This document shows positions 370 to 23,993 of a stretch of DNA of 32,000 bases, piece after piece. Both the position numbers and the translations under genes were made by a program. The DNA comes from Desulfobulbus propionicus DSM 2032 (GTDB lineage Bacteria; Desulfobacterota; Desulfobulbia; Desulfobulbales; Desulfobulbaceae): positions 2,010,001-2,042,000 of the forward strand of contig NC_014972.1 in NCBI RefSeq assembly GCF_000186885.1, written 5' to 3'. The first letter of the stretch is position 1; each line of letters starts with the position of its first letter. The notes under the pieces are model-generated. The model was not told where the DNA came from. It saw only the letters and a program-made list of their open reading frames with translations, and did not search any database.

Positions 370-1844
370 TCTATGAGGTCAAGGTCAATGATTTGGCCGA
401 AGAGTTCGGGGTCCATCGCAACACTATTCGCAACTGGATCAATTCCGGCGTCCTGCCGGCCCAGGAAGGACCGGGCCGGCGTTACCTGATCCAGTGGGAA
501 GATTACAAACGGCTGTGCGACAAGTACGGCCGCGAACCCCGCATCGCCCCCGATGCGGCAGCGGCCAGCGAACCGTCGCCCGCGCCGCGAACCAACGGCG
601 CGGTACCGGTGCCGGTCCGCCTGGAGGCAAAAACCAACCCGCTCTACACCTCGCCGATTTTGGCCGATGTCTGCCTCACCTGCGGTTCCTGCGCCGGCGC
701 CTGCCCGATCTCCGGCGTTGACGACCTCGATCCGCGCAAAATCATCCGCATGGCCTTCCTCGGCCTGGACGACGAACTGGTGGAAAGCGATTGGCCCTGG
801 AAATGCACCATGTGCGGCAAGTGCGAGGTGGTCTGCCCGATGAACGTCGAGATCGTCCAGCTGCTGCGCCGCATTCGCGCCCGCCGTTCCCGCGACAAAG
901 TGCCGCCAGCGATTCAAAAGGGGGTCATGACCTGCCTGGAGAAGGGCAACAACCTTGGCATTCCCAAGGACGATTTTCTGGCGTTGCTCAAGGAACTGGG
1001 CGAGGAACTCGCCGAGCGGTCATGCCCCGGCTTTGTCACCCCGGTGGATGTGCGCGGCGCGCGGTTGCTGGTGACCGTCAATTCCAAACAGCCCTTTGCC
1101 GAGCCCGACAGCCTTACCTGGTGGTGGAAGATCTTCCATGCCGCCGGCGAATCGTGGACCATCTCCTCCGAATATTGGGAGGGGGTCAACTGGGGGCTGC
1201 ATTCCGGCGATTACAGCGCCATGCGCACCATTGTCAAGCGGATCATCGACAATATCGAACGGCTCAACTGCAAGGCCCTGCTCCTGCCCGAGTGCGGCCA
1301 CGCCTACTACGCCACCCGCTACGCCCTGGAACGCTGGTTTCCCGAGTCGCTCCAGCAATTCAAAATCTACACCGTGTTTGACCTGCTGCTCGAATATCTC
1401 GACCAAGGCCGGATCACGCTCAATCCCAACATCCACACCCAGCTGGCGACCTTCCACGACTCCTGCAACTACGGCCGCAAGTCATTGAAAACCTTTGGCC
1501 ACGGGTATTTCGACGAGGCCCGGACCCTGACCCGCGCTTGCTGTCCCAACTACATCGACATGATCCCCGACCGCGAGGAAAATTACTGCTGCGGGGCCGG
1601 CGGCGGCGCCTGGGCCAGCCCGTTCTGGGCCGAGCGGGTCTATCATGGCCGGATCAAGGCCCGGCAAATCAGCGAGTCCGGAGCCAAGGTGGTGGTCACC
1701 GCCTGCCAGAACTGCCGCGACCAGCTGCAGACCTCGCTCAACCGCGAATTCAATCTCAACATCGACGTCCAATTTGTGTGGGAACTGGTGGCCAATTCCC
1801 TGATCACCCAACCCTCGGATGTCGTGGAGGGCCGCCATGCCTGA
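366..1844 (+). CDS. HdrD-like Fe-S/CCG-domain oxidoreductase fused to an N-terminal excisionase/MerR-type HTH domain (492 aa)
   Basis: ATG 366 is translationally coupled to the upstream stop. The N-terminus MIYEVKVNDLAEEFGVHRNTIRNWINSGVLPA...YLIQWEDYKRL looks like an HTH_17/excisionase-type DNA-binding domain. An Ala/Pro-rich linker follows. There are two CxxCxxCxxxCP motifs (CLTCGSCAGACP at 672-707, CTMCGKCEVVCP). Cys-rich CCG-type blocks (FHDSCNYGR, NYCCGAGGG, TACQNCRDQL) resemble HdrD/HdrB-like proteins. Codons are GC3-rich throughout, including the HTH part. Confidence 0.85.
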   Translation: MIYEVKVNDLAEEFGVHRNTIRNWINSGVLPAQEGPGRRYLIQWEDYKRLCDKYGREPRIAPDAAAASEPSPAPRTNGAVPVPVRLEAKTNPLYTSPILADVCLTCGSCAGACPISGVDDLDPRKIIRMAFLGLDDELVESDWPWKCTMCGKCEVVCPMNVEIVQLLRRIRARRSRDKVPPAIQKGVMTCLEKGNNLGIPKDDFLALLKELGEELAERSCPGFVTPVDVRGARLLVTVNSKQPFAEPDSLTWWWKIFHAAGESWTISSEYWEGVNWGLHSGDYSAMRTIVKRIIDNIERLNCKALLLPECGHAYYATRYALERWFPESLQQFKIYTVFDLLLEYLDQGRITLNPNIHTQLATFHDSCNYGRKSLKTFGHGYFDEARTLTRACCPNYIDMIPDREENYCCGAGGGAWASPFWAERVYHGRIKARQISESGAKVVVTACQNCRDQLQTSLNREFNLNIDVQFVWELVANSLITQPSDVVEGRHA

Positions 1845-4800
1845 GCAGACCATGATCGGTTCGGTGCTGGTGGTGGGCGGCGGCATCTCCGGGATGCAGG
1901 CGGCGCTCGACATGGCAGATTCGGGTTACTACGTCTACCTGGTGGAAAAGACCGGAGCCATTGGCGGGGCCATGCCTCAATACAACAAGGTCTTTCCCAC
2001 CAACGACTGCTCGATGTGCATCATCGCGCCCAAGCTGGTCGAGTGCGGCCGCCACCCCAACATCCGTATCATGACCCTGTCGACCGTGCTCGATGTCAAC
2101 GGCCGGGCCGGCAATTTCACCGTGCGGGTGCGCGAATATCCCCGCTACGTCGACACCGCCAAGTGCATCGCCTGCGGCCAGTGCAGCGGCAGCTGCCCGA
2201 AAAGCGTCGACGACTCCTTCAATGCCAACATCACCAAGCGCAAGGCGATCTACATCAAATACCCGCAGGCGGTGCCGCTCAAGTATCAGATCGATCCCCA
2301 GGCGTGCATCCATCTTAACAACGCGGAGAAATGCGGTCTCTGCGCCGAGATCTGCCCACCGGGAGCGATCAATTTCGCCGATCGCGAACGCGACCACGAG
2401 CTCCGGGTGGGCGCGGTGGTCATGGCGCTCGGCTTCCAGGTCTTTGATCCGTCCACGGCCAAGGTCTGGGGCTATGGGGTGTATCCCAACGTGATCACCT
2501 CGCTCCAGTTCGAGCGCTACCTGTCACCGGGCGGTCCCACCGAGGGCCTGCTCACCCGTCCCTCGGACCGCAAGCCAGTGAAGAAGATCGCCTTTCTCCA
2601 GTGCATCGGCAGCCGCGACAAGAACCGCTGCAACAACGAGTACTGCTCGGCGGTGTGCTGCATGTATGCGATCAAGGAGGCGATGACCGTCAAGGAGGCC
2701 AATCCCGAGCTTGAAGTGACCATTTTTTACATGGACATGCGCACCCCGGGCAAGGAGTTCGACCGCTACCTGGAACGGGCGCGCAACGAGTACGGGGTTC
2801 GTTTTGTCCGCTCCCGCATCCACGGGGTCGAACCCAAGGGGCGCAAGGGCGACCTGCGGCTGCATTACATCAGCGTTCAGGGCAAGCAGGTGGAAGAGGT
2901 GGTCGATCTGGTGGTGCTGTCGGTCGGCCTGGAAACCCCGGATTCGATGATCCGCCTGGCGGAAAAGATCGGCATTCACATGACGCCGGACCGCTTTGCC
3001 TCGATCTCGGCCTTCATGCCGGTACACACCTCCAAGCGGGGCGTGTTCACCTGCGGCGCCTTCAACGGCCCGCGCGACATTCCCCAATCGGTGATCGGCG
3101 GCTCGGCGGCGGCGGCCAGCGTCTCGGCCCTGCTGACTCCGGCGCGCCACACCCTGACTCGCACCCTGCCGCCGCCGATGGAACAGGATGTCAGCGGCGA
3201 GGCTCCTCGTATCGGCGTGTTCATCTGCCATTGCGGCACCAACATCGCCGGGGTGGTCGATGTCGAGGAGGTGGCCGCCTATGCTGCCTCCCTGCCGCAG
3301 GTGGTGCACGTGACGCGCAACCTGTTCACCTGTTCCCAGGACACCCAGGATCTGATGGTGCAACAGATCAGGGAAAAAGGCCTCAACCGGATCGTGGTCG
3401 CCGCCTGCACCCCCCGGACCCACGAACCGCTGTTCCGCAAGACCCTCAAGTCGGCCGGGATCAACGAATACCTGATCGAGATGGCCAACATCCGCAACCA
3501 AAACGCCTGGGTGCACAACCAGGAGCCGGACATGGCCACGGCCAAGGCCAAGGATCTGGTCCGCATGGCGGTGGCCAAGGTGACCAGCCAAACGGCCCGC
3601 AAGCCGCTGCGCATCCCCATCGCCCCGTCGGTGCTGATCATCGGCGGCGGCGTGGCCGGGATGACCGCGGCCCTCAACCTGGCCGACCAGGGATACCAGA
3701 TCCATCTGGTGGAAAAAACCACCCAGCTGGGCGGCAATGCCCTGCACCTGTTTCAGACCTGGAACGGTGAGCATGTGCCCCGGTTTTTGAAGGAGCTGAA
3801 AGAGCGGGTGCAGCAGCATCCGCTGATCGAGGTGGCCTACACCAGCACGGTGCTGGCGGTCAGCGGCCATGTGGGCAACTTCACCACCACCATCCGCACC
3901 GGTTCCAGCCGTAAACGGACCATCGAGCACGGGGCGGTGATCATCACCACCGGTGCCAAACGCTACATTCCTGAGGAATTCGAATACGGCAAGATCCCCA
4001 AGGTGGTGGCCTCGATCGAGTTCGACAAACTGCACATGCACAATGAGACCCGGGTGGCGGGCGGCAAGTCCTTTGTGTTTATCCAGTGCGTCGGTTCACG
4101 CAATGAGGAGCGGCCCTACTGCTCCAAATCGTGCTGCACCCACTCGATCCAGAGCGCCATCAAGCTGAAAAAAGAAGTCCCCTCGCGCCAGATCTACATT
4201 CTCTACCGCGAGATCCGCACCTACGGCCAGCGCGAGCGGATCTACAACCAGGCCCGGGAGCTGGGCATCGTCTTCATCAACTACGAGCTACACGGCCCAC
4301 CGCAGATCAAGAAGGCCGATAACGGCGTGCTGGTCGAGGTCTGGGACCATGTGCTCCACCGCCCCCTGGAGATCCGCGCCGATGTGGTCATCCTCGCGGC
4401 CGCCACCCTGGCCAGCCCGGAGGCCGCGGAACTGGCCAGCCTGTTCAAACTGCCGCTCAACAGCGACGGATTTTTCCAGGAGGCGCACGTCAAGCTGCGG
4501 CCGGTGGAGTTCAACGTCGACGGCGTGTTTGTCGCCGGTCTGGCCCACTATCCCAAGCCGCTGGAGGAGTCGATCTCCCAGGCCCTGGCGGCCGCCGCCA
4601 AGGCCGGCCGGCTGCTGGCCCGCAAGGAGATCAATCTGGAGCCCAATGTCGCCCTGGTGAATCCGATCCTCTGCGATGGCTGCGGCCTGTGCGTCGAGGT
4701 TTGCCCCTACCAGGCCATCACCCTGGCGGAATACCGCGATGAGAGCGGAGAACCGCGTAAAACCGTGCATATCGATCAGGTGTTGTGCAAAGGCTGCGGC

Positions 4801-4920
4801 ATCTGCCAGGGCACCTGTCCCAAACGGGGCGTGGATGTGGCCGGCTTCACCTATGCACAGATCGAGGCACAGATCGACGCGGCCCTGGAAATAGCCGAAC
4901 CGGCGGAGGAAGAGGCATGA
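1837..4920 (+). CDS. hdrA: HdrA-like FAD/Fe-S flavoprotein with tandem-duplicated flavoprotein core (about 1027 aa)
   Basis: There are two dinucleotide-binding motifs (VLVVGGGISGMQAALDMADSGY and VLIIGGGVAGMTAALNLADQGY). There are two QC(I/V)GSR blocks (FLQCIGSRDKNRC..., FIQCVGSRNEERPYC...). An HdrA N-domain-like block sits between them (GVFICHCGTNIAG...AACTPRTHE). An inserted ferredoxin (CIACGQCSGSCP...CGLCAEICP) and a C-terminal ferredoxin (CDGCGLCVEVCP...CKGCGICQGTCP) are present. The start is uncertain: ATG 1837 overlaps the upstream stop, and 1819 or 1852 are alternatives. Confidence 0.9.
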   Translation: MPEQTMIGSVLVVGGGISGMQAALDMADSGYYVYLVEKTGAIGGAMPQYNKVFPTNDCSMCIIAPKLVECGRHPNIRIMTLSTVLDVNGRAGNFTVRVREYPRYVDTAKCIACGQCSGSCPKSVDDSFNANITKRKAIYIKYPQAVPLKYQIDPQACIHLNNAEKCGLCAEICPPGAINFADRERDHELRVGAVVMALGFQVFDPSTAKVWGYGVYPNVITSLQFERYLSPGGPTEGLLTRPSDRKPVKKIAFLQCIGSRDKNRCNNEYCSAVCCMYAIKEAMTVKEANPELEVTIFYMDMRTPGKEFDRYLERARNEYGVRFVRSRIHGVEPKGRKGDLRLHYISVQGKQVEEVVDLVVLSVGLETPDSMIRLAEKIGIHMTPDRFASISAFMPVHTSKRGVFTCGAFNGPRDIPQSVIGGSAAAASVSALLTPARHTLTRTLPPPMEQDVSGEAPRIGVFICHCGTNIAGVVDVEEVAAYAASLPQVVHVTRNLFTCSQDTQDLMVQQIREKGLNRIVVAACTPRTHEPLFRKTLKSAGINEYLIEMANIRNQNAWVHNQEPDMATAKAKDLVRMAVAKVTSQTARKPLRIPIAPSVLIIGGGVAGMTAALNLADQGYQIHLVEKTTQLGGNALHLFQTWNGEHVPRFLKELKERVQQHPLIEVAYTSTVLAVSGHVGNFTTTIRTGSSRKRTIEHGAVIITTGAKRYIPEEFEYGKIPKVVASIEFDKLHMHNETRVAGGKSFVFIQCVGSRNEERPYCSKSCCTHSIQSAIKLKKEVPSRQIYILYREIRTYGQRERIYNQARELGIVFINYELHGPPQIKKADNGVLVEVWDHVLHRPLEIRADVVILAAATLASPEAAELASLFKLPLNSDGFFQEAHVKLRPVEFNVDGVFVAGLAHYPKPLEESISQALAAAAKAGRLLARKEINLEPNVALVNPILCDGCGLCVEVCPYQAITLAEYRDESGEPRKTVHIDQVLCKGCGICQGTCPKRGVDVAGFTYAQIEAQIDAALEIAEPAEEEA

Positions 4921-5339
4921 GCGGGCAAGCCAAGATCATTGCCTTCTGTTGCAACTGGTGTTCCTATGCCGCGGCCGACCTGGCCGGCATCTCCCGATTG
5001 CAGTATCCGGGCTCGATCCGCATCATCCGCGTGATGTGCTCGGGCATGGTCCATCCGGAGATGGTCCTCCATGCTCTCAACCGGGGGGCCGAAGGGGTGA
5101 TGATCATCGGCTGCCATCTGGGTGAATGCCACTATATCCGGGGCAACGAGATGGCCCTGGCCCGAGCCGAGGTGATTGCCGATACTCTTGAGGATTTGGG
5201 CTACGAGAGCGAACGGTTCCAGCTCACCTGGGTTTCCTCGGCGGAACCCGAACGGCTGGCCGACGCCTTCCGTTCCATGAGCGCCCGCCTCGCCGTTCTG
5301 CGAGGCGAGACGCCGGCCGAAACCGAGGCCGGCGAGTAG
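4917..5339 (+). CDS. mvhD: Methyl-viologen-reducing hydrogenase delta subunit (MvhD)
   Basis: ATG 4917 overlaps the hdrA stop (ATGA). The translation MSGQAKIIAFCCNWCSYAAADLAG...YPGSIRIIRVMCSGMVHPEMVLHAL..GAEGVMIIGCHLGECHYIRGN matches the MvhD Cys pattern. Confidence 0.9.
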   Translation: MSGQAKIIAFCCNWCSYAAADLAGISRLQYPGSIRIIRVMCSGMVHPEMVLHALNRGAEGVMIIGCHLGECHYIRGNEMALARAEVIADTLEDLGYESERFQLTWVSSAEPERLADAFRSMSARLAVLRGETPAETEAGE

Positions 5340-5346
5340 GGGAGTC

Positions 5347-6273
5347 ATGCGGCCCCGGCTCAGTTTCGAATGGCTCCATGCCTGCTGCGGCTGCGAAATT
5401 GCCCTGCTCAACAGCGGCGAGTCGCTGCTGCGCCTGCTGGAGCGGGTGGAGATCGTTCATTTTCCCCTGCTGATGGACCACAAATACCACTCCAGGGGCG
5501 AGACCTTCGACCTGCCCGAGGCCGAGATCGGCGTGGTCTCCGGCGGGGTGGCCGACAGGGCGCAGCTGGCGATGCTGAAAACCATGCGTGCCCGCTGCCA
5601 CACCTTGATTGGACTGGGCACCTGCGCCACCCACGGCGGTATTCCCGCCCTGCGCAACCAGTGGAGCGTCGAAACCACCTTGGACACGGTCTATGGACAG
5701 AGTGCGGGCGAACAAGGACTGGTGCCGGCTGCGCTCGCCGCCCCCTTGGATCGGGTCTACAGCGTGGACGAACAGGTGCGGCTCGACCTCTGCCTGCCCG
5801 GCTGTCCACCCCGGCCGGAAACGATCGTGGAGGCGATCGTCGCCCTGATTGACCACAACTCGCCGCGCCTGCCGCGCAAGAGCGTGTGCGAGACCTGCCC
5901 CGCCCAGCGGCAGGGCAAGGGGGCGGAACGGCTGCGCCGTTTTCTCGACAATGCCGATCATGGGGCGGATGAACCTGTCGAGCGAATGCGCTGCCTACTC
6001 GAACAGGGATTGCTGTGCATGGGACCGGTCACCGCCGGCGGCTGCGGCGGCCAGGAGGCGCCACTATGCATCCAGGCACGGGTGCCCTGCCGGGGCTGCT
6101 ACGGTCCGGTGCGGACGGACGGCAACCCCCTGCTGGACATGCTGGGTGCCCTGGCGAGCAACGGTATCGAGTATCGCGGCCTGGTTGACCGCAAGTCGCT
6201 GCTGCGCTTCAGCGGCGCCCACGGCCTGCTCAAGCCGCAACGCCGGCCGAATCTCCACGACCAAGGAAAATAG
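5347..6273 (+). CDS. mvhG: [NiFe] hydrogenase small subunit, group 3c (MvhG-like)
   Basis: A GGGGAG RBS precedes ATG 5347. Proximal-cluster motifs are HACCGCEIALL, GLGTCATHGGIPAL and LPGCPPRPE. The C-terminal Cys-rich ferredoxin-like part is CETCP...CMGPVTAGGCGG...CRGCYGP. Confidence 0.9.
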   Translation: MRPRLSFEWLHACCGCEIALLNSGESLLRLLERVEIVHFPLLMDHKYHSRGETFDLPEAEIGVVSGGVADRAQLAMLKTMRARCHTLIGLGTCATHGGIPALRNQWSVETTLDTVYGQSAGEQGLVPAALAAPLDRVYSVDEQVRLDLCLPGCPPRPETIVEAIVALIDHNSPRLPRKSVCETCPAQRQGKGAERLRRFLDNADHGADEPVERMRCLLEQGLLCMGPVTAGGCGGQEAPLCIQARVPCRGCYGPVRTDGNPLLDMLGALASNGIEYRGLVDRKSLLRFSGAHGLLKPQRRPNLHDQGK

Positions 6274-6302: not shown

Positions 6303-7748
6303 ATGTCACAGGTCATCAGCATCCATCCGGTCACCCGCATCGAAGGCCATGCCCGGGTCGATATCCACCTCGACGAGGTGGGTCGGGTGCGCGACGCCCG
6401 GGTGGCCATCGCCGCCCTGCGCGGGTTCGAACAGTTCGTCATCGGTCGGCCGGCCGAGGAAATTCCCCGGATCGTCAGTCGAATTTGCGGCATCTGTCCG
6501 TGGATGCACCATCTGGCCGCGGTCAAGGCCGTGGATGGCTGCTTTGCCGCCTCGGTACCGCCCGCCGGTCACCTATTGCGCGAACTTTGCCAGATATTGG
6601 CGCATATCCACGACAAAATCCTTCATTTCTTTTTTCTCGCCGCCCCGGACTTCGTGCTTGGACCCGGGGGCGACTACGCCGTGCGCAACATCATGGGTCT
6701 GGTCAAACAGGAACCGGAACTGGCGGCACGGGTGGTGTGCATGCGCCAGCTGGCCACGGCCATGCTGGCCCGTTTCGCCGGCAAGGATATCCATCCGGTG
6801 GCCGGCGTGGTGGGTGGCTTCTCCAAACCGATGCGCAAGGAGGAACAAGCGGCGATGCGGGCCGATGGCCAGCACCTGCTCGATTTCGCCTCCTTTGCCC
6901 TCGATTTCGCCAAGACCAGGGTATTCGCCCGCTTTCAGGAGGAATTGCAGTCTCTGGGCACGATCACCACCGGTTTTCTTGGCACGGTCGATGACCAGGG
7001 CAGCCTGCGACTCTACGACGGCAATCTGCGGCTGATGCGGGCCGATGGCCGCAGTGTCGATTTCCCGGTCAGCGATTATGAGCGGTTTCTTGCCGAACAT
7101 GTCGAATCCTGGTCCTCGGCCAAAATGGTCTATGCCAAGTGCTGGGGCGAGGGCTTTCGCCTCGACCCAAAGGCGCCCCAGGGGATTTACCGGGTCAATA
7201 CCCTGGCCCGGCTCAATGTCTGCGACCAGATCGCCACCCCCCGTGCCCAAGCCGAGTTGGAGGCATTCCGTGAACGCTTCGGCCGCCCGGCCCAGGGAAC
7301 CCTGCTCTATCACTGGGCGCGATTGATCGAACTGGTCCACGCCTGTGAACGGGCCTTGGAACTGCTGGCGGACGACCGGATCACCGCCCCCCAGGCGCGC
7401 CTGCCGGCGCAGCCCGCAGCGGGCAGGGGAATCGGCCATGTCGAGGCGCCGCGCGGCACCCTGATCCACGACTACACCACCGATGACAACGGCTGCATCA
7501 CCCGGGCCAATCTCATTGTCGGCACCACCCACAACATCGCGCCGATGAACCTGAGCGTGCACCAGGCCGCAGCCCGCCTGATCGCCGACGGTGAGGTGGA
7601 CGAGGAGATCCTCAACCGGATCGAGATGGCCATCCGGGCCTACGACCCGTGAATTTCCTGCGCCACGCACCGCCTGGATGGCGGGCTGCCACTGACTGTA
7701 ACCCTGGTTGACCATCACGGCGCGCCGGTCCGTTTCCTGCGGCGCTAA
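6303..7748 (+). CDS. mvhA: [NiFeSe] hydrogenase large subunit, group 3c (MvhA/VhuA-like), with in-frame UGA (7650-7652) read as selenocysteine U450; 481 aa
   Basis: A GGGAG RBS precedes ATG 6303. The N-terminus has ISIHPVTRIEGH and the RICGICPWMH ligand motif (6480-6509). The tracked ORF ends ...AIRAYDP at TGA 7650-7652. The same frame continues ISCATHRLDGGLPLTVTLVDHHGAPVRFLRR to TAA 7746-7748, which gives the canonical DP-(C/U)-xx-C-xx-H C-terminal Ni ligand motif plus a protease-cleavable tail. Confidence 0.8.
7659..7691 (+). promoter_or_regulatory. Candidate bacterial SECIS-like stem-loop downstream of the UGA
   Basis: The core is CCGCC(7670-7674)-UGGAU-GGCGG(7680-7684). It can be extended outward with single-nucleotide bulges to about 7659/7691. 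The upper stem starts roughly 16-18 nt 3' of the UGA. Folded by eye only. Confidence 0.4.
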
Positions 7749-7763
7749 CAAATGACCATCCTC

Positions 7764-7781
7764 GCGGGCCGCATGGCCCGC
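7764..7781 (+). other. Perfect GC-rich stem-loop (GCGGGCC-GCAT-GGCCCGC) 16 nt after the extended mvhA stop; intercistronic stabiliser or weak terminator
   Basis: A 7-bp perfect inverted repeat with a 4-nt loop, read directly from the sequence. No U-tract follows. Confidence 0.45.
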
Positions 7782-7793
7782 CCTTGGTACCCT

Positions 7794-8048
7794 ATGAACG
7801 AAAACATGGAAGAAAAGCATCGCAAAATCGTCCGGGTCGAGGCCCCCAACTGCGCCTGCGGCTGCGTCGGCCACATGACCGCCGACGAGCTCAAGCAACG
7901 AGCGGCCAATGACGACATGGACCTCTCCTGTCCGATCTGCGGCCTGATCCACCTCAGCCGCGAAGAGATCGACGACCTGGAGAAGCAGAAAGTGGTCAAC
8001 TCGAAACGGTACCGGGAAATCCAGCGTCAAGCCGAATCCGTGGGATGA
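7794..8048 (+). CDS. Small Cys-rich hypothetical protein (84 aa; CxCxC...CPxC, acidic/helical C-terminus)
   Basis: The ORF track has 7752-8048. I prefer ATG 7794 (or 7806) because the 7764-7781 hairpin lies upstream of it. Codons are GC3-rich. The sequence is ...VEAPNCACGCVGHMTADELKQRAANDDMDLSCPICGLIHLSREEIDDLEKQK.... I do not recognise a family. No clear RBS. Confidence 0.55.
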   Translation: MNENMEEKHRKIVRVEAPNCACGCVGHMTADELKQRAANDDMDLSCPICGLIHLSREEIDDLEKQKVVNSKRYREIQRQAESVG

Positions 8049-8225: not shown

Positions 8226-10547
8226 ATGTCCCAGGCCATCCAATCTTCCTCCCCTCTGACCGGCGCGTTGCGGATCTCTATCCACGGAATCGTGCAGGGG
8301 GTCGGTTTCCGCCCTTTTGTCTACCGATTGGCCCATCAGCTCGGCCTGGACGGATCGGTGGTCAACAACGGCGAAGGAGTGGCCATTCATGTGGGCGGAC
8401 CGTTGCCGCTTCTCGAACAGTTTGTGCAATCCCTGCGGGAGCAGGCGCCGCCAATGGCCCGGATCGTGTCCCTTGACGCGCGGCCGACCGACCGCCCCCC
8501 CGCACCGGGCGCGTTTCGCATTCTGCCCAGCCAGCAGGGGGGCCGGCCGAACACCCAGATCGCGCCGGACATCGCGGTGTGCGACGATTGCCTGGCCGAG
8601 TTGTTCGACCCCGGCAACCGCAGGTTCCGCTATCCGTTCATCAACTGCACCAACTGCGGCCCACGGTTTTCCATTGTCGAGCGCATCCCCTACGACCGGC
8701 CCAACACCTCGATGCGCGTTTTTCCGCTGTGCGCCGACTGCGCCCGCGAATACACGGATCCGCTGGACCGTCGTTTTCATGCCCAGCCCAATGCCTGCCC
8801 GGTCTGCGGACCGCAGCTGAGCTGGCATGACCGCGAAGGACGCGGGCTGCCGGGGGACTGCCTCGCCTTGGCCGCCCGTGCCTTGGCCGAGGGCGGGGTG
8901 GTGGCCATCAAGGGGTTGGGCGGCTTTCATCTGGCCGTGGACGGTTGTTCGGAGGAGGCGGTGGCCCTGCTGCGGACCCGAAAGAACCGGCCCGCCAAAC
9001 CGCTGGCGATCATGATCCGGGATCTGGAGACGGCCGAACGTTTTGCCTGGCTGTCCGAGCAAGACAAGGCTCTACTGACCTCGCCGGAACACCCGATTGT
9101 GCTCATGGACCGCAGGAGCGGCAGCCCGTTGGCCGAAGGGGTGGCTCCGGGACTGGGGGCGATCGGTCTGATGCTGCCCTACACGCCGCTGCACCACCTG
9201 CTGCTCGACCAGCCCGGAATACCCGAAGCCCTGGTGATGACCAGCGGCAACCGCAGCGACGAGCCGATCTGCACCGGCAACGACGAGGCCCTGCGCCGAC
9301 TCCGTGACCTGGCCGACTTCTTTCTCCTCCATAACCGGGAGATCGTCACCCGGGTCGACGATTCGGTGGCCCGGATCATCGATGGCAGATCCCGGCTGCT
9401 GCGGCGGGCCCGCGGCTACTCGCCGGTGCCCCTGCAGCTGCGTCGACCCACCGCCGATATCCTGGCCTGCGGTGGCGAGATGAAGAACAGTTTCTGCATC
9501 GTCCGCCGCAACGAGGCCTATCTCAGCCAGCACATCGGCGAGCTAACTGGAGTGGAACAGTACGATTTTTTTCAGGAAAGCATCGCCCATCTGCAGGCGG
9601 TGCTGGAGGTGACGCCGCCCAACGTGGCCTGCGATCTCCATCCCGACTACCTGAGTTCCCGCTATGCCCACGGTCTGGCCATGCCCTGCCGGGAGGTGCA
9701 GCACCACCATGCCCATATCGGCGCGGTCCTGGCCGAGCAGGGACTCGATGGACCGGTGCTGGGCATCGTCCTTGACGGCACCGGCTACGGCGGCGACGGT
9801 ACCGTGTTTGGCGGCGAGCTCTTCCGGGCCGACCGCGGCGGATTCCTCCGCCTCGGCCGTCTATCCCATCTGCCGCTCCCCGGCGGCGACCGGGCGGCGC
9901 TGGAGCCTTGGCGCATGGCCCTGGCCTTGCTCTATGCGGGTTCGCCCGCGCCCTCGCTCGATCAGCGCCAACTGCCGGCGAGCCTCGCTCCCATCGCCGT
10001 GGACAAGCAGCGACTGCTCTGGCAAATGATGGCCAAGGGGCTGAACTGCCCGCGCACGTCCAGTTGCGGGCGATTGTTCGACGCGGTTGCCGCGCTGCTC
10101 GGGCTTTGTCTGGTCAGTCAGTATGAGGGACAGGCGGCGATGCTGCTCGAACACCACGCCACCTTGGCGACAACGACCACGACGGAACCCGCCTATGCGG
10201 TGACCATCTACGAGGAGGGGAGGGAACAGGTCATCGATTCGGCGCCGCTGGCCGGCTTGCTGCTTCGCGATCTGGCCGACTCGGTGCCGACAGCGGTGAT
10301 CGCCCGTCGTTTCCATCTCTGGTTGGTCGAGGCCCTGATCGAACTGATGCGGCGCGTCCACTCGCAAACCGGCCTCGACCAAGTGGTGCTTGCCGGCGGC
10401 TGCATGCAAAATAAACTCTTGTTTGAAACCCTGGCCGAACGGTTGCGCGAAGCCGCCTTTTCGGTCCATGCCGGCGAACTGGCGCCGATGAACGACGGCG
10501 GCCTTTCCCTGGGTCAGGCCTATCTAGGAGGTTCTCTATGTGTCTAG
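8226..10547 (+). CDS. hypF: Carbamoyltransferase HypF
   Basis: 773 aa. It has an acylphosphatase-like N-terminus (IHGIVQGVGFRPFVYRLA) and paired Zn-finger motifs (CDDCLAE...CTNCGPRFS; CADCAREY...CPVCGPQL). YrdC-like and Kae1-like C-terminal domains are also present. Confidence 0.95.
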   Translation: MSQAIQSSSPLTGALRISIHGIVQGVGFRPFVYRLAHQLGLDGSVVNNGEGVAIHVGGPLPLLEQFVQSLREQAPPMARIVSLDARPTDRPPAPGAFRILPSQQGGRPNTQIAPDIAVCDDCLAELFDPGNRRFRYPFINCTNCGPRFSIVERIPYDRPNTSMRVFPLCADCAREYTDPLDRRFHAQPNACPVCGPQLSWHDREGRGLPGDCLALAARALAEGGVVAIKGLGGFHLAVDGCSEEAVALLRTRKNRPAKPLAIMIRDLETAERFAWLSEQDKALLTSPEHPIVLMDRRSGSPLAEGVAPGLGAIGLMLPYTPLHHLLLDQPGIPEALVMTSGNRSDEPICTGNDEALRRLRDLADFFLLHNREIVTRVDDSVARIIDGRSRLLRRARGYSPVPLQLRRPTADILACGGEMKNSFCIVRRNEAYLSQHIGELTGVEQYDFFQESIAHLQAVLEVTPPNVACDLHPDYLSSRYAHGLAMPCREVQHHHAHIGAVLAEQGLDGPVLGIVLDGTGYGGDGTVFGGELFRADRGGFLRLGRLSHLPLPGGDRAALEPWRMALALLYAGSPAPSLDQRQLPASLAPIAVDKQRLLWQMMAKGLNCPRTSSCGRLFDAVAALLGLCLVSQYEGQAAMLLEHHATLATTTTTEPAYAVTIYEEGREQVIDSAPLAGLLLRDLADSVPTAVIARRFHLWLVEALIELMRRVHSQTGLDQVVLAGGCMQNKLLFETLAERLREAAFSVHAGELAPMNDGGLSLGQAYLGGSLCV

Positions 10548-10816
10548 CCATTCCCATGCAGGTGGTGGCCATTCAAGGCGGCAGCGACGAGCTGCTCGAT
10601 CCCCAGGTCGCCCTGGTGGAAAGCGACGGTATCCGCAAGGAGATCCGGCTGGAGATGGCCGACCGGGTGCCGGCGGTGGGCGAATACGTGATCATCCATG
10701 CCGGTTTCGCCATCCGCACCCTGACTGAGGAGGAGGCGGAGTACAACCTTAGCCTGATGCGGCGGATGGCCGAGGTCCTGGAACAGGAGGGACGCCTGCC
10801 CGGAGCACCCGAATGA
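10538..10816 (+). CDS. hypC: Hydrogenase assembly chaperone HypC/HupF
   Basis: MCLAIPMQV... is the canonical N-terminus with Cys2. 92 aa. The start overlaps the hypF stop and a GGAGG RBS is present. Confidence 0.93.
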   Translation: MCLAIPMQVVAIQGGSDELLDPQVALVESDGIRKEIRLEMADRVPAVGEYVIIHAGFAIRTLTEEEAEYNLSLMRRMAEVLEQEGRLPGAPE

Positions 10817-11934
10817 AGTGCGTGGACGCCTTTCGCAGCCGGGAGATCACCGCGCCGCTGGTGGAGGAAATTGCCCGCGTCTTGACCCGACCGGTGCGGA
10901 TCATGGAAGTCTGCGGCACCCATACCATGTCGATCTTCCGCCATGGAATCCGCTCGCTGCTGCCCGAGGGGATCACCCTGCTTTCCGGCCCGGGGTGCCC
11001 GGTCTGCGTCACCCCGGCCGGCCATATCGATGCCTTCCTCGCCGCCGCCCGCTTGCCCCAGGTGACGATCGCCACCTTCGGCGATCTGATCCGGGTGCCG
11101 GGCAGCGAAGGATCTCTGGCCGAGGCCCGCGCCCAGGGGGCCAGAGTGGAGATCGTCTACTCGCCCATGGATGCGCTGACCCTGGCCCGGCAGCAGCCCG
11201 AGCGGACCGTGCTGTTCGCGGCCATCGGTTTTGAAACCACGGCCCCGACCATTGCCGCCACCATCCTCCAGGCCGAGCGGCTGGGCGTCGACAATTTCCT
11301 CATCATCACCGCCCTCAAGACCATGCCCCAGGCCCTGGAGGCGCTGCTGGCCGACCCGGAGCTGCGCATCGACGGCCTGCTCTGCCCGGGACACGTCAGT
11401 GCCATCATCGGCAGCGACGCCTACCAGCCGTTTGCCGAACGTCATCGCTTGGCCTGCGCGGTGACCGGGTTCGAACCCGCCGACATTCTGGCCGGCCTGC
11501 TCGGTCTGATCCGCCAGATCAGCGAGGAGCAGCCGCGGGTCGACAACTGCTACACCCGGGCGGTGAGCGCGGCTGGCAACATCAAGGCCCAGCGGTTGAT
11601 CGACACGGTGTTCGAGCCGGTCGACAGCGAGTGGCGCGGCCTGGGCCCGATTCCCGGCAGCGGCCTGGCGCTGCGGGACGCCTACCAGCGGTTCGACGCC
11701 ATAAAACGGCTGTCCCTGTGTGTGCCGCCGGCGCACGATCCCAAGGGCTGCCGCTGCGGCGAGATCCTCAAGGGTCGCCTGCTGCCGCCGCAGTGCTCCT
11801 TGTATGGCACGGCCTGCACCCCGCTGCGGCCAATTGGTCCCTGCATGGTATCCAACGAGGGCACCTGTGCCGCCTACTTTCGCTACAGCGGCCACAAGGG
11901 CCGCCAGGACGGGCAAACGACATCTTTTCGTTAA
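10813..11934 (+). CDS. hypD: Hydrogenase formation protein HypD
   Basis: 373 aa, coupled to hypC by ATGA. Motifs are MEVCGTHT, GPGCPVCVT and a C-terminal Cys cluster (CRCGEILKG...CSLYGTACTP..PIGPCMVSNEGTCAAY). Confidence 0.95.
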   Translation: MKCVDAFRSREITAPLVEEIARVLTRPVRIMEVCGTHTMSIFRHGIRSLLPEGITLLSGPGCPVCVTPAGHIDAFLAAARLPQVTIATFGDLIRVPGSEGSLAEARAQGARVEIVYSPMDALTLARQQPERTVLFAAIGFETTAPTIAATILQAERLGVDNFLIITALKTMPQALEALLADPELRIDGLLCPGHVSAIIGSDAYQPFAERHRLACAVTGFEPADILAGLLGLIRQISEEQPRVDNCYTRAVSAAGNIKAQRLIDTVFEPVDSEWRGLGPIPGSGLALRDAYQRFDAIKRLSLCVPPAHDPKGCRCGEILKGRLLPPQCSLYGTACTPLRPIGPCMVSNEGTCAAYFRYSGHKGRQDGQTTSFR

Positions 11935-11952
11935 CTCTGGATCAGGAGATTC

Positions 11953-12969
11953 ATGAAAGCAGACGCCATTATCAGCCTTGACCACGGAAGCGGTGGCTTG
12001 GCCAGTCAGAACCTCATCAGCGGCCTGTTCCTCAAGTATCTGACCTCGCCGCAGCTGCGCGACCTGGAAGACTGCGCCGTGCTCGGCGAATACGCGGGCC
12101 GCATCGCTTTCTCCACCGACAGCTACGTGGTCGATCCGCTCTTCTTTCCCGGCGGCGATATCGGCGCCTTGGCGGTGCATGGGACCATCAACGACCTGGC
12201 CATGCGCGGCGCCCGGCCGATCGCCCTCAGCCTGGCCCTGATCATCGAGGAAGGCTTTCCGGTGACCGATTTGGAACGGATCATCGCCTCGGTGGGCCGC
12301 TGCTCGGAACAGGCCGGGGTGGCGGTGGTCACCGGCGACACCAAGGTGGTGCCGCGAGGCAAGGCGGATGGCCTGTTCATCAACACCACCGGCATCGGCA
12401 TTGCCTCGCATCGCCACGATATTTCCGGCAAGAAAGGGTTGCCCGGCGACGCGGTCATCCTCTCCGGCACCCTGGCCGACCACGGCATCACCATCATGAG
12501 CCGCCAGGCCGGCATCGATATCGGCGGCGACATCGCCAGCGACACCCAGCCCCTGCACCGGCTGGTCGGCGCCGTGCTGGAAGGGGACGCGGGCCTGGTG
12601 CATGTGCTGCGCGACCCGACCCGGGGCGGCCTGGCCACCTCCCTGTGCGAGATTGCCTGGGCCTCAGGAGTCAGCATCACCATCGAGGAAGACCGGCTGC
12701 CGATCCGGCCCGCGGTCAACACCGCCTGTGAGATGATCGGCCTGGACCCCCTCTACCTGGCCAACGAGGGCAAATGCATCATCCTCTGCGACCAGGACGG
12801 TGCCGAGGACATTCTCCAGTTGATCCGCCGCCTGCCCGAGGGCCGGGATGCCGCCCTGATCGGCTGGGTGGGCGAGGGCAGTTCCGGCCGGGTCAGCCTG
12901 ACCACCCGCATCGGCGGCTCGCGCTTGCTCGAACCGCTGACCGGTCAACCGTTGCCGAGGATCTGCTGA
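11953..12969 (+). CDS. hypE: Hydrogenase expression/formation protein HypE
   Basis: 338 aa with an AGGAG RBS. It has an AIR-synthase-like fold and the characteristic C-terminal ...PRIC. Confidence 0.95.
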   Translation: MKADAIISLDHGSGGLASQNLISGLFLKYLTSPQLRDLEDCAVLGEYAGRIAFSTDSYVVDPLFFPGGDIGALAVHGTINDLAMRGARPIALSLALIIEEGFPVTDLERIIASVGRCSEQAGVAVVTGDTKVVPRGKADGLFINTTGIGIASHRHDISGKKGLPGDAVILSGTLADHGITIMSRQAGIDIGGDIASDTQPLHRLVGAVLEGDAGLVHVLRDPTRGGLATSLCEIAWASGVSITIEEDRLPIRPAVNTACEMIGLDPLYLANEGKCIILCDQDGAEDILQLIRRLPEGRDAALIGWVGEGSSGRVSLTTRIGGSRLLEPLTGQPLPRIC

Positions 12970-13003
12970 TGGTCATCAAATTTTTCCAAGGAGATTGAAC
13001 CCG

Positions 13004-13390
13004 ATGCATGAACTGTCACTGGCCCAGAGCCTGCTCGGCCAGCTGCTCGACCTGGCCCGGGAGCATGGGGCCCAGCGGATTACCCGGGTATCGGTCACCA
13101 TCGGTCCCTTTTCCGGGATTGTCCGCGATTCCTTCGAATTTGGCTTCAATACCCTCAAGCTCTCCCAGGAGCTGACCCGCGAGGCCCACCTGGCGGTGGA
13201 AACGCCGGATCCGGTCTATCAGTGTCTGGACTGCGGCAAGGTGTCGGTCATTCCCTTTGCCCTGCCCGGCGACCGGCTGGAATCGCTGCTGTCCAGCCAC
13301 TATCCCAAGAAATGCCCCTGGTGCTGCCTGTCGCGGCTTTCCCCCAAAGGCGGGACCGAACTCATCCTCAACCAAGTAGAAATGGAGTAA
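13004..13390 (+). CDS. hypA: Hydrogenase nickel incorporation protein HypA
   Basis: An AAGGAG RBS lies 8 nt before ATG 13004. The N-terminus is MHELSLAQSLL (the MHE Ni site). The Zn site is CLDCG...CPWCC. The loop between the two Cys pairs is longer than I expect for HypA. Confidence 0.9.
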   Translation: MHELSLAQSLLGQLLDLAREHGAQRITRVSVTIGPFSGIVRDSFEFGFNTLKLSQELTREAHLAVETPDPVYQCLDCGKVSVIPFALPGDRLESLLSSHYPKKCPWCCLSRLSPKGGTELILNQVEME

Positions 13391-13394
13391 GCTC

Positions 13395-14105
13395 ATGTGT
13401 GATACCTGCGGCTGTCAACTGCACGACCATCACCACCACGACAGCAAGGTGGTCGAGGTCAACCGGAGTCTGCTGGAAGCCAATCAGCAGCAGGCCCATG
13501 CCAACCGGCACCATATCGAAGCCATGGGCGCGGTGGCCATCAACCTGATCTCCAGCCCCGGTTCGGGCAAGACTACCCTGCTGGAGCGGACCATCGAGAC
13601 CCTCAAGGGAACCGTCAATATCGGGGTGATCGAGGGCGACATCGAAACCGAACGCGACGCCGACCGTATCCGCGCCAAGGGTGTGCCAGCGGTGCAGCTG
13701 ACCACCGGCGGCGCCTGTCACCTGGACGCGCCCATGGTCCATGGCGGCCTCCATGTGCTCGAACACTTTGGCAAGGGACAGAAATTCGATCTGATCTTCA
13801 TCGAAAACGTTGGCAACCTGGTCTGCCCTGCCACCTTTGACCTGGGCGAACACCAACGGGTGATCCTCTTGTCGGTGCCGGAAGGATCGGACAAGCCGGC
13901 CAAGTATCCGGCCACCTTCCGCAGCGCCGACCTGGTGCTGATCACCAAGACCGACCTGCTGCCCCACTTTGATTTCTCGCTCGACGAGGCCACCCGTGAG
14001 GCCCAGACCCTCAAACCAGGAGTGCCGATCCTGCCCCTTTCGGCCACCAGCGGCGACGGGTTTGATCGCTGGATCGACTATCTTACCCGGTTGCTGCACA
14101 AGTAA
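13395..14105 (+). CDS. hypB: Hydrogenase nickel-incorporation GTPase HypB
   Basis: The N-terminus MCDTCGCQLHDHHHHD carries a CxxCGC site plus a His stretch. The P-loop is SSPGSGKTTLL, followed by a G3E GTPase core. Confidence 0.95.
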   Translation: MCDTCGCQLHDHHHHDSKVVEVNRSLLEANQQQAHANRHHIEAMGAVAINLISSPGSGKTTLLERTIETLKGTVNIGVIEGDIETERDADRIRAKGVPAVQLTTGGACHLDAPMVHGGLHVLEHFGKGQKFDLIFIENVGNLVCPATFDLGEHQRVILLSVPEGSDKPAKYPATFRSADLVLITKTDLLPHFDFSLDEATREAQTLKPGVPILPLSATSGDGFDRWIDYLTRLLHK

Positions 14106-23912: not shown

Positions 23913-23993
23913 AAAGAATCACTTCTCCATGTTTGCCGTGCTCAGCCGTTGTATCGGCGACGATTTTTCTTTTTCCTCCCGTTGCGGTTGTCC

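What the first reader, a model, noticed from the sequence alone, without database searches (positions are those of the whole stretch)
7620..7748. In-frame UGA at the first Cys of the DPCxxCxxH nickel motif: MvhA is most likely a selenocysteine [NiFeSe] large subunit that ORF callers truncate
The tracked ORF ends ...AIRAYDP at TGA 7650-7652. The same frame continues ISCATHRLDGGLPLTVTLVDHHGAPVRFLRR to TAA 7746-7748. Together this gives DP-U-IS-C-AT-H, the C-terminal metal-ligand motif of [NiFe] large subunits with Sec in place of the first Cys. That is the arrangement in known [NiFeSe] enzymes. The N-terminal ligand pair RICGICPWMH is intact (6480-6509). A protein stopping at 7652 would lack two active-site ligands and the tail removed by the maturation protease. 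A strong hairpin sits just after the TAA, not after the TGA.
Basis: partly seen in the sequence, partly recalled or inferred. Interest (0 to 1): 0.7.

Follow-up and report, generated by a model that had tools for sequence, protein, structure and literature searches.

The report
Selenocysteine codon in MvhA hydrogenase gene
The apparent stop codon inside this hydrogenase gene most likely encodes selenocysteine at the nickel site; this is a known kind of [NiFeSe] enzyme in sulfate-reducing bacteria, and gene callers routinely cut it short.

Summary
TGA 7650-7652 interrupts the mvhA frame exactly at the first Cys of DPCxxCxxH. The frame continues ISCATH plus 25 residues to TAA 7746-7748.

The selenocysteine reading is strongly supported:
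- All 80 species-level relatives fetched carry TGA at this codon, never TGC, TGT, TAA or TAG. Their true stop codons vary.
- Coding periodicity continues past the TGA.
- The codon aligns on the Sec of the solved Methanococcus VhuU chain (9sfi_M).
- A conserved 5-bp hairpin with loop UGGAU (7670-7684) starts 21 nt from the U of UGA. It keeps pairing through compensatory changes and has frozen synonymous sites.
- The hairpin has the same register and loop as the one after the Sec codon of mvhD in relatives.
- A HycI-family maturation protease gene lies at the head of the operon.

The "strong hairpin after TAA" exists but is not conserved and has no U-tract.

The Sec-insertion genes are not in the window and could not be tested for this genome. 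Published surveys list Desulfobulbus propionicus and other relatives as Sec users.

This is the glpC-hdrA-frhD-frhG-frhA selenoprotein operon described in Deltaproteobacteria in 2006. Here three of its four Sec sites have become Cys. It is a new member of a known kind, of low interest.

The parts
1..369 (+). 3' end of a HycI-family hydrogenase maturation endopeptidase gene, the first gene of the operon. The full 230-aa gene is seen on contig L081.
   Evidence: Pfam PF01750 matches window 1-369 at E = 3.5e-13 and the full gene L081:2411-3103 at E = 5e-16. Gene map.
366..1844 (+). GlpC/HdrD-like Fe-S protein (HTH_17 + 4Fe-4S dicluster + CCG domain). Its Cys codon TGC 1293-1295 is TGA (Sec) in 39 related loci.
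1819..4920 (+). Double-length HdrA-like flavoprotein (1033 aa from the ORF lister; the gene caller starts at 1837). Its Cys codon TGC 2017-2019 is TGA in 42 related loci.
4917..5339 (+). MvhD/FlpD subunit. Its Cys codon TGC 5112-5114 is TGA in 44 related loci.
   Evidence: PF02662 at E = 3.3e-50..
5347..6273 (+). MvhG small subunit.
   Evidence: PF01058. Best NCBIfam hit is VhuG.
6303..7748 (+). Full mvhA: 449 codons, then UGA (Sec450), then 31 codons, then TAA. Gene callers stop at 7652.
6480..6509 (+). N-terminal Ni/Fe ligand motif RICGICPWMH.
   Evidence: Read directly from the sequence. Invariant in alignment A1.
7644..7670 (+). C-terminal ligand motif D-P-U-I-S-C-A-T-H.
   Evidence: Aligns with DPCLSCATH of MvhA and DPXYSCAAH of VhuU.
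7650..7652 (+). In-frame UGA, read as selenocysteine (residue 450).
   Evidence: TGA in 81 of 81 sequences. TGA is an ordinary stop for 9 of 18 other genes in the window.
7670..7684 (+). SECIS candidate. Stem 7670-7674 pairs with 7680-7684; apical loop UGGAU at 7675-7679 (+21 to +35 from the U of UGA).
   Evidence: All 395 cells paired and two pairs with compensatory changes. Synonymous sites are frozen only here. Same register and loop as the mvhD hairpin in relatives.
7671..7745 (+). 25-residue C-terminal tail RLDGG...FLRR. It is inferred to be removed by the HycI-type protease after Ni insertion.
   Evidence: The tail is homologous to the tails of Cys-type MvhA. Coding periodicity holds through it. 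Cleavage itself is inferred.
7764..7781 (+). GC-rich hairpin GCGGGCC-GCAU-GGCCCGC in the 45-nt gap before the next ORF.
   Evidence: -19.6 kcal/mol, z = -2.8. No U-tract. Not conserved in close relatives.
7794..8048 (+). Small Cys-rich ORF (CxCxC...CPxC, 84 aa from ATG 7794) that follows mvhA.
   Evidence: tblastn finds it in 76 of 80 loci. No Pfam or NCBIfam family.
8226..14105 (+). hypF, hypC, hypD, hypE, hypA and hypB maturation genes.

Best explanation
mvhA (6303-7748) encodes a 481-residue large subunit of a cytoplasmic Mvh/Vhu-type (group 3c) hydrogenase. UGA 7650-7652 is decoded as selenocysteine.

Proposed mechanism:
1. The 15-nt hairpin at 7670-7684 (5-bp stem, loop UGGAU), 17 nt past the UGA, acts as the bacterial SECIS.
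2. SelB bound to Sec-tRNASec binds this hairpin and delivers Sec to the ribosome, so translation continues through ISCATH and the tail.
3. Sec450 and Cys453, together with Cys62 and Cys65, bind the Ni-Fe centre. This makes a [NiFeSe] enzyme.
4. The Hyp proteins insert the metals. The HycI-family protease encoded at the head of the operon is then expected to remove the 25-residue tail after His456.
5. The enzyme works with MvhG, MvhD, the HdrA-like flavoprotein and the GlpC/HdrD-like Fe-S protein. This would be an H2-oxidising, probably electron-bifurcating, complex.

Shown here: the UGA, the conserved downstream frame, the conserved hairpin and the operon content.
Inferred: SelB binding, selenium incorporation, tail cleavage and the physiological electron acceptor.
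For: Conservation of the codon
- TGA in 81 of 81 sequences, while the true stop of the same gene varies (TGA 42, TAG 21, TAA 18).
- The 120 best database homologues cover only 93% of the extended query, and nearly all are 449-450 aa. They are cut at the same place.

Translation continues past the TGA
- ISCATH is invariant at the protein level while its third codon positions vary freely (1.0-1.85 bits).
- Tail entropy at codon positions 1/2/3 is 1.34/0.57/1.75.

Homology
- The protein matches 9sfi_g VhuA at 4e-112, 9sw2_F at 6e-108 and 5odc_F MvhA at 1e-105.
- The TGA aligns on the Sec of VhuU chain 9sfi_M.
- 57 more distant full-length relatives have DPCxxCxxH followed by a homologous tail.

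Hairpin
- All 395 cells pair. G23-C33 becomes A-U in 8 loci (7 distinct sequences) and C21-G35 becomes U-A in 2.
- 0 of 500 shuffles reach the observed pairing or covariation score.
- Synonymous sites inside the hairpin are frozen: Arg 0.33, Leu 0.00, Gly 0.47 bits, against 1.7-1.9 bits at flanking four-fold sites.
- G is at apical-loop position 2, as in the bacterial SECIS consensus (PMC13582414).

Hairpins track TGA in the neighbouring genes
- Equivalent hairpins follow TGA in mvhD, hdrA and glpC of relatives in 43/44, 40/42 and 39/39 cases.
- They are absent from the Cys-codon versions: 0/28, 2/22 and 0/21.
- 118 of 135 hairpins of this type in 1.9 Mb lie exactly 20 nt after a TGA.

Operon context
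- HycI-family protease and hypFCDEAB are in the operon.

Literature
- MvhA/VhuA/VhuU is a recognised selenoprotein family with a UxxC motif (PMC13188914).
- The same five-gene operon with Sec was described in Desulfotalea and Syntrophobacter (PMC1794560).
- D. propionicus is listed as Sec-utilising (PMC5029168, Table S2).
- Ca. D. rimicarensis DR15, which is locus L019, has all the Sec biosynthesis genes (PMC7117923).
Against: - selA, selB, selC and selD are not in the window, in the 37-kb parent contig stretch examined, or in any fetched locus. Sec capacity of this genome is therefore only inferred.
- The conserved stem has only 5 bp, and no conserved lower stem was found.
- Folding the single sequence is not better than shuffles (z = -0.25).
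- Rfam has no match.
- The compensatory changes may represent as few as two independent events.
- In the window's own clade the other three Sec sites of the operon have become Cys, so Sec use there is reduced.
- No protein or selenium data exist.
Confidence: 0.93

Rival explanations
1. The UGA is read through with the help of SelB and the SECIS, but the residue inserted is cysteine, always or when selenium is scarce. A tRNAReC-type tRNACys would deliver it. Near-cognate read-through without SelB is a weaker variant.
For: - tRNAReC has been reported to recode UGA next to a SECIS (PMC13582414, citing Vargas-Rodriguez 2018).
- The window's clade has replaced Sec by Cys at the three other sites of the operon. 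This could reflect life with little selenium.
Against: - If Cys were the wanted residue, TGC or TGT would be simpler. That change was in fact made at the other three sites, but never here in 81 species.
- D. propionicus is listed with 8 selenoproteins.
- No tRNA of any kind is seen in the window.
Confidence: 0.04
2. The TGA is a genuine stop. The gene makes a 449-residue protein without the C-terminal ligands: a decaying or non-catalytic hydrogenase remnant.
For: - Every gene caller and RefSeq annotate it this way, for example WP_448872668.1 at 449 aa.
- TGA is a normal stop elsewhere in the window.
Against: - The 31 codons after the TGA are under protein-level selection across relatives with 64-81% identity.
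- They contain the invariant CxxH ligand motif.
- A remnant would not keep TGA in 81 of 81 sequences while its true stop varies.
- A remnant would not keep a covarying hairpin, a dedicated tail protease and a full hyp set.
Confidence: 0.02
3. The enzyme is split as in Methanococcus. A VhuA-like large piece ends at the TGA, and a separate VhuU-like peptide is translated from the downstream frame.
For: NCBIfam matches residues 5-426 to VhuA and residues 431-458 to the selenopeptide VhuU as separate models. In the solved Methanococcus complex the two are separate chains.
Against: - The archaeal split lies about 18 residues upstream of the Sec, and VhuU contains the Sec.
- Here the frame has no stop upstream of the TGA, and no start codon or ribosome-binding site follows it (the next codon is AUU, AUG or CUG, directly abutting).
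- A peptide starting after the TGA would lack the Ni ligand.
Confidence: 0.01

Closest known systems
Five-gene glpC-hdrA-frhD-frhG-frhA selenoprotein operon of Deltaproteobacteria (Syntrophobacter fumaroxidans, Desulfotalea psychrophila; Zhang et al. 2006, PMC1794560)
   Same: Same gene order and domain content. The hydrogenase large subunit, called FrhA in that paper, carries Sec. Desulfotalea belongs to the same order as the relatives found here. In 39-44 related loci all four proteins carry TGA, as described in the paper.
   Different: In the window and its closest relatives (L001-L018, L020), GlpC, HdrA and MvhD have Cys codons and only the large subunit keeps UGA. The operon here is preceded by a HycI-type protease gene and followed by a small Cys-rich ORF and hypFCDEAB.
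Methanococcus Vhu [NiFeSe] hydrogenase (VhuA + VhuU; PDB 9sfi) and the Cys-type MvhA of Methanothermococcus/Methanothermobacter (5odc, 9sw2)
   Same: Best structural relatives, at E = 1e-105 to 4e-112. RxCGxC and DP(U/C)xSCA(T/A)H ligand motifs are shared. Sec sits at the same position as in VhuU. Partners are MvhG, MvhD and HdrA.
   Different: - This is a single fused polypeptide, not a VhuA/VhuU split.
- It is bacterial, with the SECIS inside the coding region directly after the UGA, not in the 3'-UTR as in archaea.
- Scores are below NCBIfam's equivalog cut-offs: VhuA 433.7 against 800, VhuU 43.9 against 70.
- A GlpC/HdrD-like protein stands in place of HdrBC.
Desulfobacterium autotrophicum HRM2 MvhA2DG, a cytoplasmic selenocysteine-containing hydrogenase next to Sec-HdrA1 (PMC2702500)
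   Same: A sulfate reducer with a Sec-containing Mvh large subunit clustered with hdrA and mvhD. That genome carries selA, selB, selC and selD.
   Different: Different family (Desulfobacteraceae). The HRM2 sequence was not compared directly here.
Periplasmic group 1a [NiFeSe] hydrogenases (Hys of Desulfovibrio vulgaris, Desulfomicrobium baculatum; PDB 5jsu, 1cc1)
   Same: Sec replaces the first Cys of the C-terminal pair (UxxC), as stated for groups 1 and 3 in PMC13582414. The Pfam family is the same, PF00374.
   Different: Only distant homologues, at E about 1e-37 to 1e-38. They are periplasmic, with different small subunits and electron partners.

Membership tests
[NiFeSe] group 3 (Mvh/Vhu-type) hydrogenase large subunit | Full-length homology to MvhA/VhuA large subunits | tested here: met
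   PDB hits 9sfi_g at 4e-112, 9sw2_F at 6e-108 and 5odc_F at 1e-105, covering residues 5-473. PF00374. The best NCBIfam model is VhuA, but the score is below its equivalog cut-off (433.7 against 800), so this is a relative and not an equivalog of the Methanococcus protein.
[NiFeSe] group 3 (Mvh/Vhu-type) hydrogenase large subunit | N-terminal RxCGxC metal-ligand motif | tested here: met
   RICGICPWMH at 6480-6509. Invariant in alignment A1.
[NiFeSe] group 3 (Mvh/Vhu-type) hydrogenase large subunit | C-terminal DP-U-xx-C-xx-H with an in-frame UGA at the first Cys position | tested here: met
   DP-TGA-ISCATH at 7644-7670. TGA in 81 of 81 sequences. Aligns on the Sec of VhuU chain 9sfi_M.
Bacterial selenoprotein gene | SECIS stem-loop directly 3' of the UGA, with G at apical-loop position 1 or 2 | tested here: met
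   Hairpin at 7670-7684 with loop UGGAU. All cells paired, two pairs with compensatory changes, 0 of 500 shuffles as good. Synonymous sites frozen. Same type of hairpin tracks TGA against TGC/TGT in neighbouring genes. The loop criterion comes from PMC13582414. Binding to SelB was not tested.
Bacterial selenoprotein gene | Cys-containing homologues exist at the UGA position (Sec/Cys pair) | tested here: met
   57 of 80 listed representatives of at least 430 aa have DPCxxCxxH. The three closest 50%-identity clusters end in ...DP.
Bacterial selenoprotein gene | The genome encodes selA, selB, selC (tRNASec) and selD | not testable with these tools
   None found in the 32-kb window, in L081 or in the 80 loci. 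The rest of the genome is not available. Relatives are reported as Sec users.
Bacterial selenoprotein gene | Selenium is actually incorporated into the protein | not testable with these tools
   This needs 75Se labelling or mass spectrometry.
glpC-hdrA-frhD-frhG-frhA selenoprotein operon (Zhang et al. 2006) | Gene order GlpC-like, HdrA, FrhD/MvhD, FrhG/MvhG, FrhA/MvhA | tested here: met
   Window genes 366-1844, 1819-4920, 4917-5339, 5347-6273 and 6303-7748. Operon described in PMC1794560.
glpC-hdrA-frhD-frhG-frhA selenoprotein operon (Zhang et al. 2006) | Sec in GlpC, HdrA and FrhD as well as in FrhA | tested here: not met
   The window has TGC at 1293, 2017 and 5112. TGA is found at those positions in 39, 42 and 44 related loci. 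The window therefore has a partly Cys-converted version of the operon.
[NiFe] large subunit matured by C-terminal cleavage | A C-terminal extension after the His of the motif, plus a cognate endopeptidase | tested here: met
   A 25-residue tail (7671-7745) that is homologous to the tails of Cys-type MvhA. A HycI-family gene at the operon head. Cleavage itself was not tested.

The most novel reading that the evidence does not exclude
In the window's Desulfobulbus clade, Sec has been replaced by Cys at the three other Sec sites of the operon (GlpC-like, HdrA, MvhD). The UGA and SECIS at the nickel ligand were never replaced in any of the 81 species examined. The most novel reading is that this site is kept as a conditional recoding site. 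SelB would read the same UGA and SECIS with either Sec-tRNASec or a Cys-charged tRNAReC, depending on selenium supply. One gene would then give a [NiFeSe] or a [NiFe] enzyme, instead of the two isoenzyme operons (Vhu and Vhc) used by Methanococcus.
Probability: 0.06. Interest if true: 0.5.

Novelty: new member of a known kind. Interest (0 to 1): 0.2.

Why it matters
This matters mainly for annotation.
- Every public homologue found is recorded as a protein of about 449 residues without its C-terminal nickel ligands. This includes the RefSeq entry for Desulfobulbus propionicus.
- Genome-based metabolic reconstructions of Desulfobulbales therefore list a plain [NiFe] Mvh enzyme and undercount selenoproteins.
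- The corrected model predicts a selenium requirement for cytoplasmic H2 oxidation and electron bifurcation in these sulfate reducers, sulfur disproportionators and cable-bacteria relatives.

The comparative data also give a clean natural experiment on SECIS evolution. The hairpins are present whenever the codon is TGA and lost whenever it is TGC or TGT.

No new biology of Sec decoding or of hydrogenases is implied.

Tried and rejected
- Single-sequence folding of 7641-7720 gave nothing significant (z = -0.25). The SECIS only became visible through comparison.
- Rfam at gathering threshold found no match in the window.
- tRNA scans of the window and 82 loci found no tRNASec.
- Family scans of the other window genes found no selA, selB or selD.
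- I could not reach the rest of this genome, or the full genomes of relatives, to test for Sec machinery.
- A conserved lower SECIS stem was looked for (pairs 18-37 and 19-36). It was rejected because those columns vary without covariation.
- The post-TAA hairpin was considered as a terminator and rejected: no U-tract, and not conserved.
- Genome-wide UGA reassignment was rejected because 9 of 18 genes in the window end in TGA.
- Structure prediction was not run. Sequence identity to solved MvhA/VhuA structures already fixes the ligand positions.
Full report
**What is in the sequence**

The frame that opens at ATG 6303 has a GGGAG ribosome-binding site a few bases upstream. The ORF lister offers GTG 6282 as an alternative start. 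The frame reads 449 sense codons ending ...EMAIRAYDP and meets TGA at 7650-7652. It then continues ISCATHRLDGGLPLTVTLVDHHGAPVRFLRR to TAA at 7746-7748. RICGICPWMH lies at 6480-6509.

**Gene context**

The gene sits in one co-directional cluster:
- a HycI-family maturation protease, of which only the 3' end is in the window (1-369); the full gene is on the parent contig L081;
- a GlpC/HdrD-like Fe-S protein (366-1844);
- a double-length HdrA-like flavoprotein (1819-4920);
- MvhD (4917-5339);
- MvhG (5347-6273);
- MvhA (6303-7748);
- a small Cys-rich ORF (7794-8048);
- hypF, hypC, hypD, hypE, hypA and hypB (8226-14105).

**Is it more than chance?**

A search of 5.8 billion proteins returned 120 best homologues (64-100% identity). 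All cover only 93% of the extended query, and nearly all are 449-450 aa long. Every gene caller, RefSeq included, stops at the same place.

I fetched the DNA of 80 species-level relatives. They belong to Desulfobulbus, Desulfocapsa, Desulfurivibrio, Desulfogranum, Desulfopila, Desulfofustis, Desulfoprunum, Desulfacinum and many metagenome-assembled genomes.
- In the window and all 80 loci the codon is TGA, never TGC, TGT, TAA or TAG. It is followed by [I/M/L]SCATH[R/H]LDG and a stop about 25 codons later.
- The true stop of the same gene is TGA in 42, TAG in 21 and TAA in 18.
- TGA is also the ordinary stop of 9 of 18 other genes in the window, so the genetic code is not reassigned.

**Translation continues past the TGA**

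After the TGA the six residues ISCATH are fixed at the protein level, apart from I/M/L at the first. Their third codon positions vary freely (1.0-1.85 bits). In the tail, entropy at codon positions 1/2/3 is 1.34/0.57/1.75, the signature of a translated frame.

The extended protein aligns over residues 5-473 with archaeal MvhA/VhuA structures: 9sfi_g at 4e-112, 9sw2_F at 6e-108 and 5odc_F at 1e-105. Those proteins read IRAYDPCLSCATH where the window reads IRAYDP-TGA-ISCATH. In 9sw2_F the tail aligns as well.

The 27-residue VhuU chain of the solved Methanococcus maripaludis Hdr-Vhu-Fwd complex (9sfi_M) reads [25 protein letters not shown]. Its Sec (X) falls exactly on the TGA.

An exhaustive search of 1.84 billion cluster representatives shows a clear split. 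The three closest clusters (65, 50 and 44% identity) end in ...DP. Fifty-seven more distant full-length relatives have DPCxxCxxH followed by a homologous tail, for example THSLPGQMPLEVVIRNADGEVIDVL. A member of the 44% cluster was checked at the DNA level and reads RAHDP-TGA-ISCATH....

**The SECIS element**

That is wrong.
- Position. Counting the U of UGA as +1, bases +21 to +35 (window 7670-7684) form CCGCC-UGGAU-GGCGG.
- Pairing. Across 81 sequences (79 distinct) all 395 cells pair.
- Covariation. Two pairs keep pairing through changes on both sides. G23-C33 becomes A-U in 8 loci (7 distinct sequences). There a non-synonymous Arg-to-His change is matched by a synonymous GGC-to-GGT change. 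C21-G35 becomes U-A in the two Desulfacinum loci. No shuffle out of 500 reaches the observed pairing or covariation score, and slid registers pair far worse. These changes may represent as few as two independent events.
- Synonymous sites. Inside the hairpin they are frozen: Arg CGC 0.33 bits, Leu always CUG at 0.00 bits, and Gly GGC 0.47 bits (the changes there are only the compensatory ones). Four-fold sites just outside are free: Ala 1.73, Thr 1.85 and the next Gly 1.72 bits.
- Loop. G is at the second loop position, which meets the bacterial SECIS criterion quoted in PMC13582414.
- Limits. No conserved lower stem was found, and folding the single sequence alone is not significant.

**A natural control from the neighbouring genes**

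tblastn of the window's neighbours against the loci showed in-frame TGA exactly where the window has Cys: GlpC-like Cys325 (39 loci), HdrA Cys67 (42 loci) and MvhD Cys66 (44 loci). Each of these TGAs is followed by its own conserved hairpin:

| Gene | Stem | Loop |
|---|---|---|
| glpC-like | +21-25 / +31-35 | GGUCC |
| mvhD | +20-25 / +31-36 | UGGAU |
| hdrA | +26-30 / +36-40 | GGUCG |

The mvhD hairpin has the same loop and register as the mvhA hairpin.

The full hairpin is present in 39/39, 43/44 and 40/42 TGA versions (glpC-like, mvhD, hdrA). It is present in 0/21, 0/28 and 2/22 Cys-codon versions, the window's own included. The hairpins therefore go with the UGA, not with the protein sequence.

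In 1.9 Mb of sequence counted on both strands, 118 of 135 hairpins of the type "5-bp stem plus UGGAY loop" lie exactly 20 nt after a TGA. These sites come from two gene families, so they are not 118 independent events.

**Sec-insertion machinery**

No tRNA gene, and no selA, selB or selD, lies in the window, in the parent-contig stretch L081, or in any fetched locus. I could not reach the rest of the genome, so this defining feature is untested for this organism.

Indirect support comes from two directions. First, purifying selection on the TGA, the frame and the hairpin holds within the window's own clade. Second, published work covers relatives:
- Ca. [quoted passage not shown] That paper nevertheless calls its Mvh a plain [NiFe] enzyme (PMC7117923).
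- D. propionicus DSM 2032, whose MvhA is 79% identical, is listed among Sec-utilising organisms with 8 selenoproteins. D. japonicus, D. mediterraneus, Desulfocapsa sulfexigens, Desulfotalea psychrophila and Desulfurivibrio alkaliphilus are listed with 11-16 (PMC5029168, Table S2).

**How it most likely works**

SelB carrying Sec-tRNASec binds the 7670-7684 hairpin and inserts Sec at UGA 7650-7652. Sec450 and Cys453, with Cys62 and Cys65, bind the Ni-Fe site. The Hyp proteins load the metals. The HycI-type protease encoded at the head of the operon removes the 25-residue tail after His456. The mature large subunit works with MvhG, MvhD, the HdrA-like flavoprotein and the GlpC/HdrD-like protein as a cytoplasmic, probably electron-bifurcating, H2-oxidising complex.

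The UGA, the frame, the hairpin and the gene set are shown here. SelB binding, selenium content, cleavage and the electron acceptor are inferred from established knowledge of bacterial Sec decoding and of [NiFe] maturation.

**Rival explanations**

- A genuine stop (0.02). This is contradicted by selection on the downstream frame, the invariant TGA and the retained maturation genes.
- A VhuA/VhuU-like split (0.01). There is no stop upstream of the Sec codon and no start after it. In Methanococcus the split lies about 18 residues earlier, and VhuU carries the Sec.
- SelB-dependent insertion of Cys through a tRNAReC, or plain read-through (0.04). This cannot be excluded without the genome or protein data. 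It is unlikely as the main outcome, because a TGC or TGT codon would give Cys more simply. That substitution was made at the three other sites and never here.

**Comparison with what is known**

MvhA/VhuA/VhuU is a listed prokaryotic selenoprotein family with a UxxC motif (PMC13188914). [quoted passage not shown]

Zhang et al. 2006 described this very five-gene operon, glpC-hdrA-frhD-frhG-frhA. They found Sec in GlpC, HdrA, FrhD and FrhA in Syntrophobacter fumaroxidans and Desulfotalea psychrophila (PMC1794560). Desulfobacterium autotrophicum has a Sec-containing MvhA2DG (PMC2702500).

The window is therefore a new member of a known kind. What differs is that three of the four Sec sites are Cys in its clade. 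The bacterial protein is also a fused VhuA+VhuU equivalent, and it scores below NCBIfam's equivalog cut-offs.

**Verdict**

Novelty is low and interest is about 0.2. The practical value is the correction of a systematic truncation in public annotation. A smaller evolutionary point is that the nickel-ligand Sec is the one Sec of this operon that is never exchanged for Cys.

Noticed in passing
window 1293-1295, 2017-2019, 5112-5114; loci L019-L080: The GlpC-like, HdrA and MvhD genes have Cys codons (TGC) in the window and its closest relatives. They have in-frame TGA in 39, 42 and 44 more distant loci. The operon has lost three of its four Sec sites in this clade, while mvhA keeps its Sec site in 81 of 81 sequences.
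   Followed up: yes
loci L019-L080, +20 to +40 nt after the TGA of glpC-like, hdrA and mvhD: Each Sec codon in these genes has its own conserved hairpin, with loops GGUCC, GGUCG and UGGAU. The hairpin is present in nearly all TGA versions and absent from nearly all Cys versions. The mvhA and mvhD hairpins share loop and register, and both force a Leu-Asp-Gly peptide (CUG GAU GG).
   Followed up: yes
window 7794-8048 (the ORF lister starts it at 7752): A small Cys-rich ORF (CxCxC...CPxC, 84 aa) lies directly downstream of mvhA. tblastn finds it in 76 of 80 related loci. It matches no Pfam or NCBIfam family. It may be a zinc-ribbon accessory protein of this hydrogenase.
   Followed up: partly
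window 1-369; L081 2411-3103: The HycI-family protease at the head of the operon is 230 aa long. The protease domain covers only residues 79-207, so it has an N-terminal extension of about 78 residues with unknown function.
   Followed up: partly
window 366-1844: The GlpC/HdrD-like Fe-S protein carries an N-terminal HTH_17/MerR-like DNA-binding motif (PF12728, E = 7e-9) fused to its 4Fe-4S and CCG domains. This is an unusual combination for an electron-transfer subunit.
   Followed up: no
window 1819-4920: The HdrA-like protein is double length (1033 aa) and has two FAD/NAD-binding regions. NCBIfam's HdrA2 model matches it in three stretches.
   Followed up: no
window 7764-7781: A GC-rich 7-bp hairpin lies in the 45-nt gap between mvhA and the small ORF. 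It has no U-tract and is absent from the closest relatives. Some distant relatives (L058, L067) have a true terminator-like hairpin with a U-run at this place instead.
   Followed up: partly
L083 3244-3300: A distant Sec-type MvhA cluster (44% identity, in a different gene neighbourhood) has TGA-ISCATH followed by a much shorter tail (LVQGVRIVSKERP). Its candidate hairpin is different (CCUG-GUA-CAGG with a bulged A). This suggests that Sec at this position predates the Desulfobulbales clade.
   Followed up: partly
window 14487-18403 and 23949-26447: Downstream of the hyp genes lie a sensor histidine kinase and a sigma-54-dependent response regulator. Further on is a PAS-GGDEF-hemerythrin protein. 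These may be redox or O2-responsive regulators near the hydrogenase cluster.
   Followed up: no
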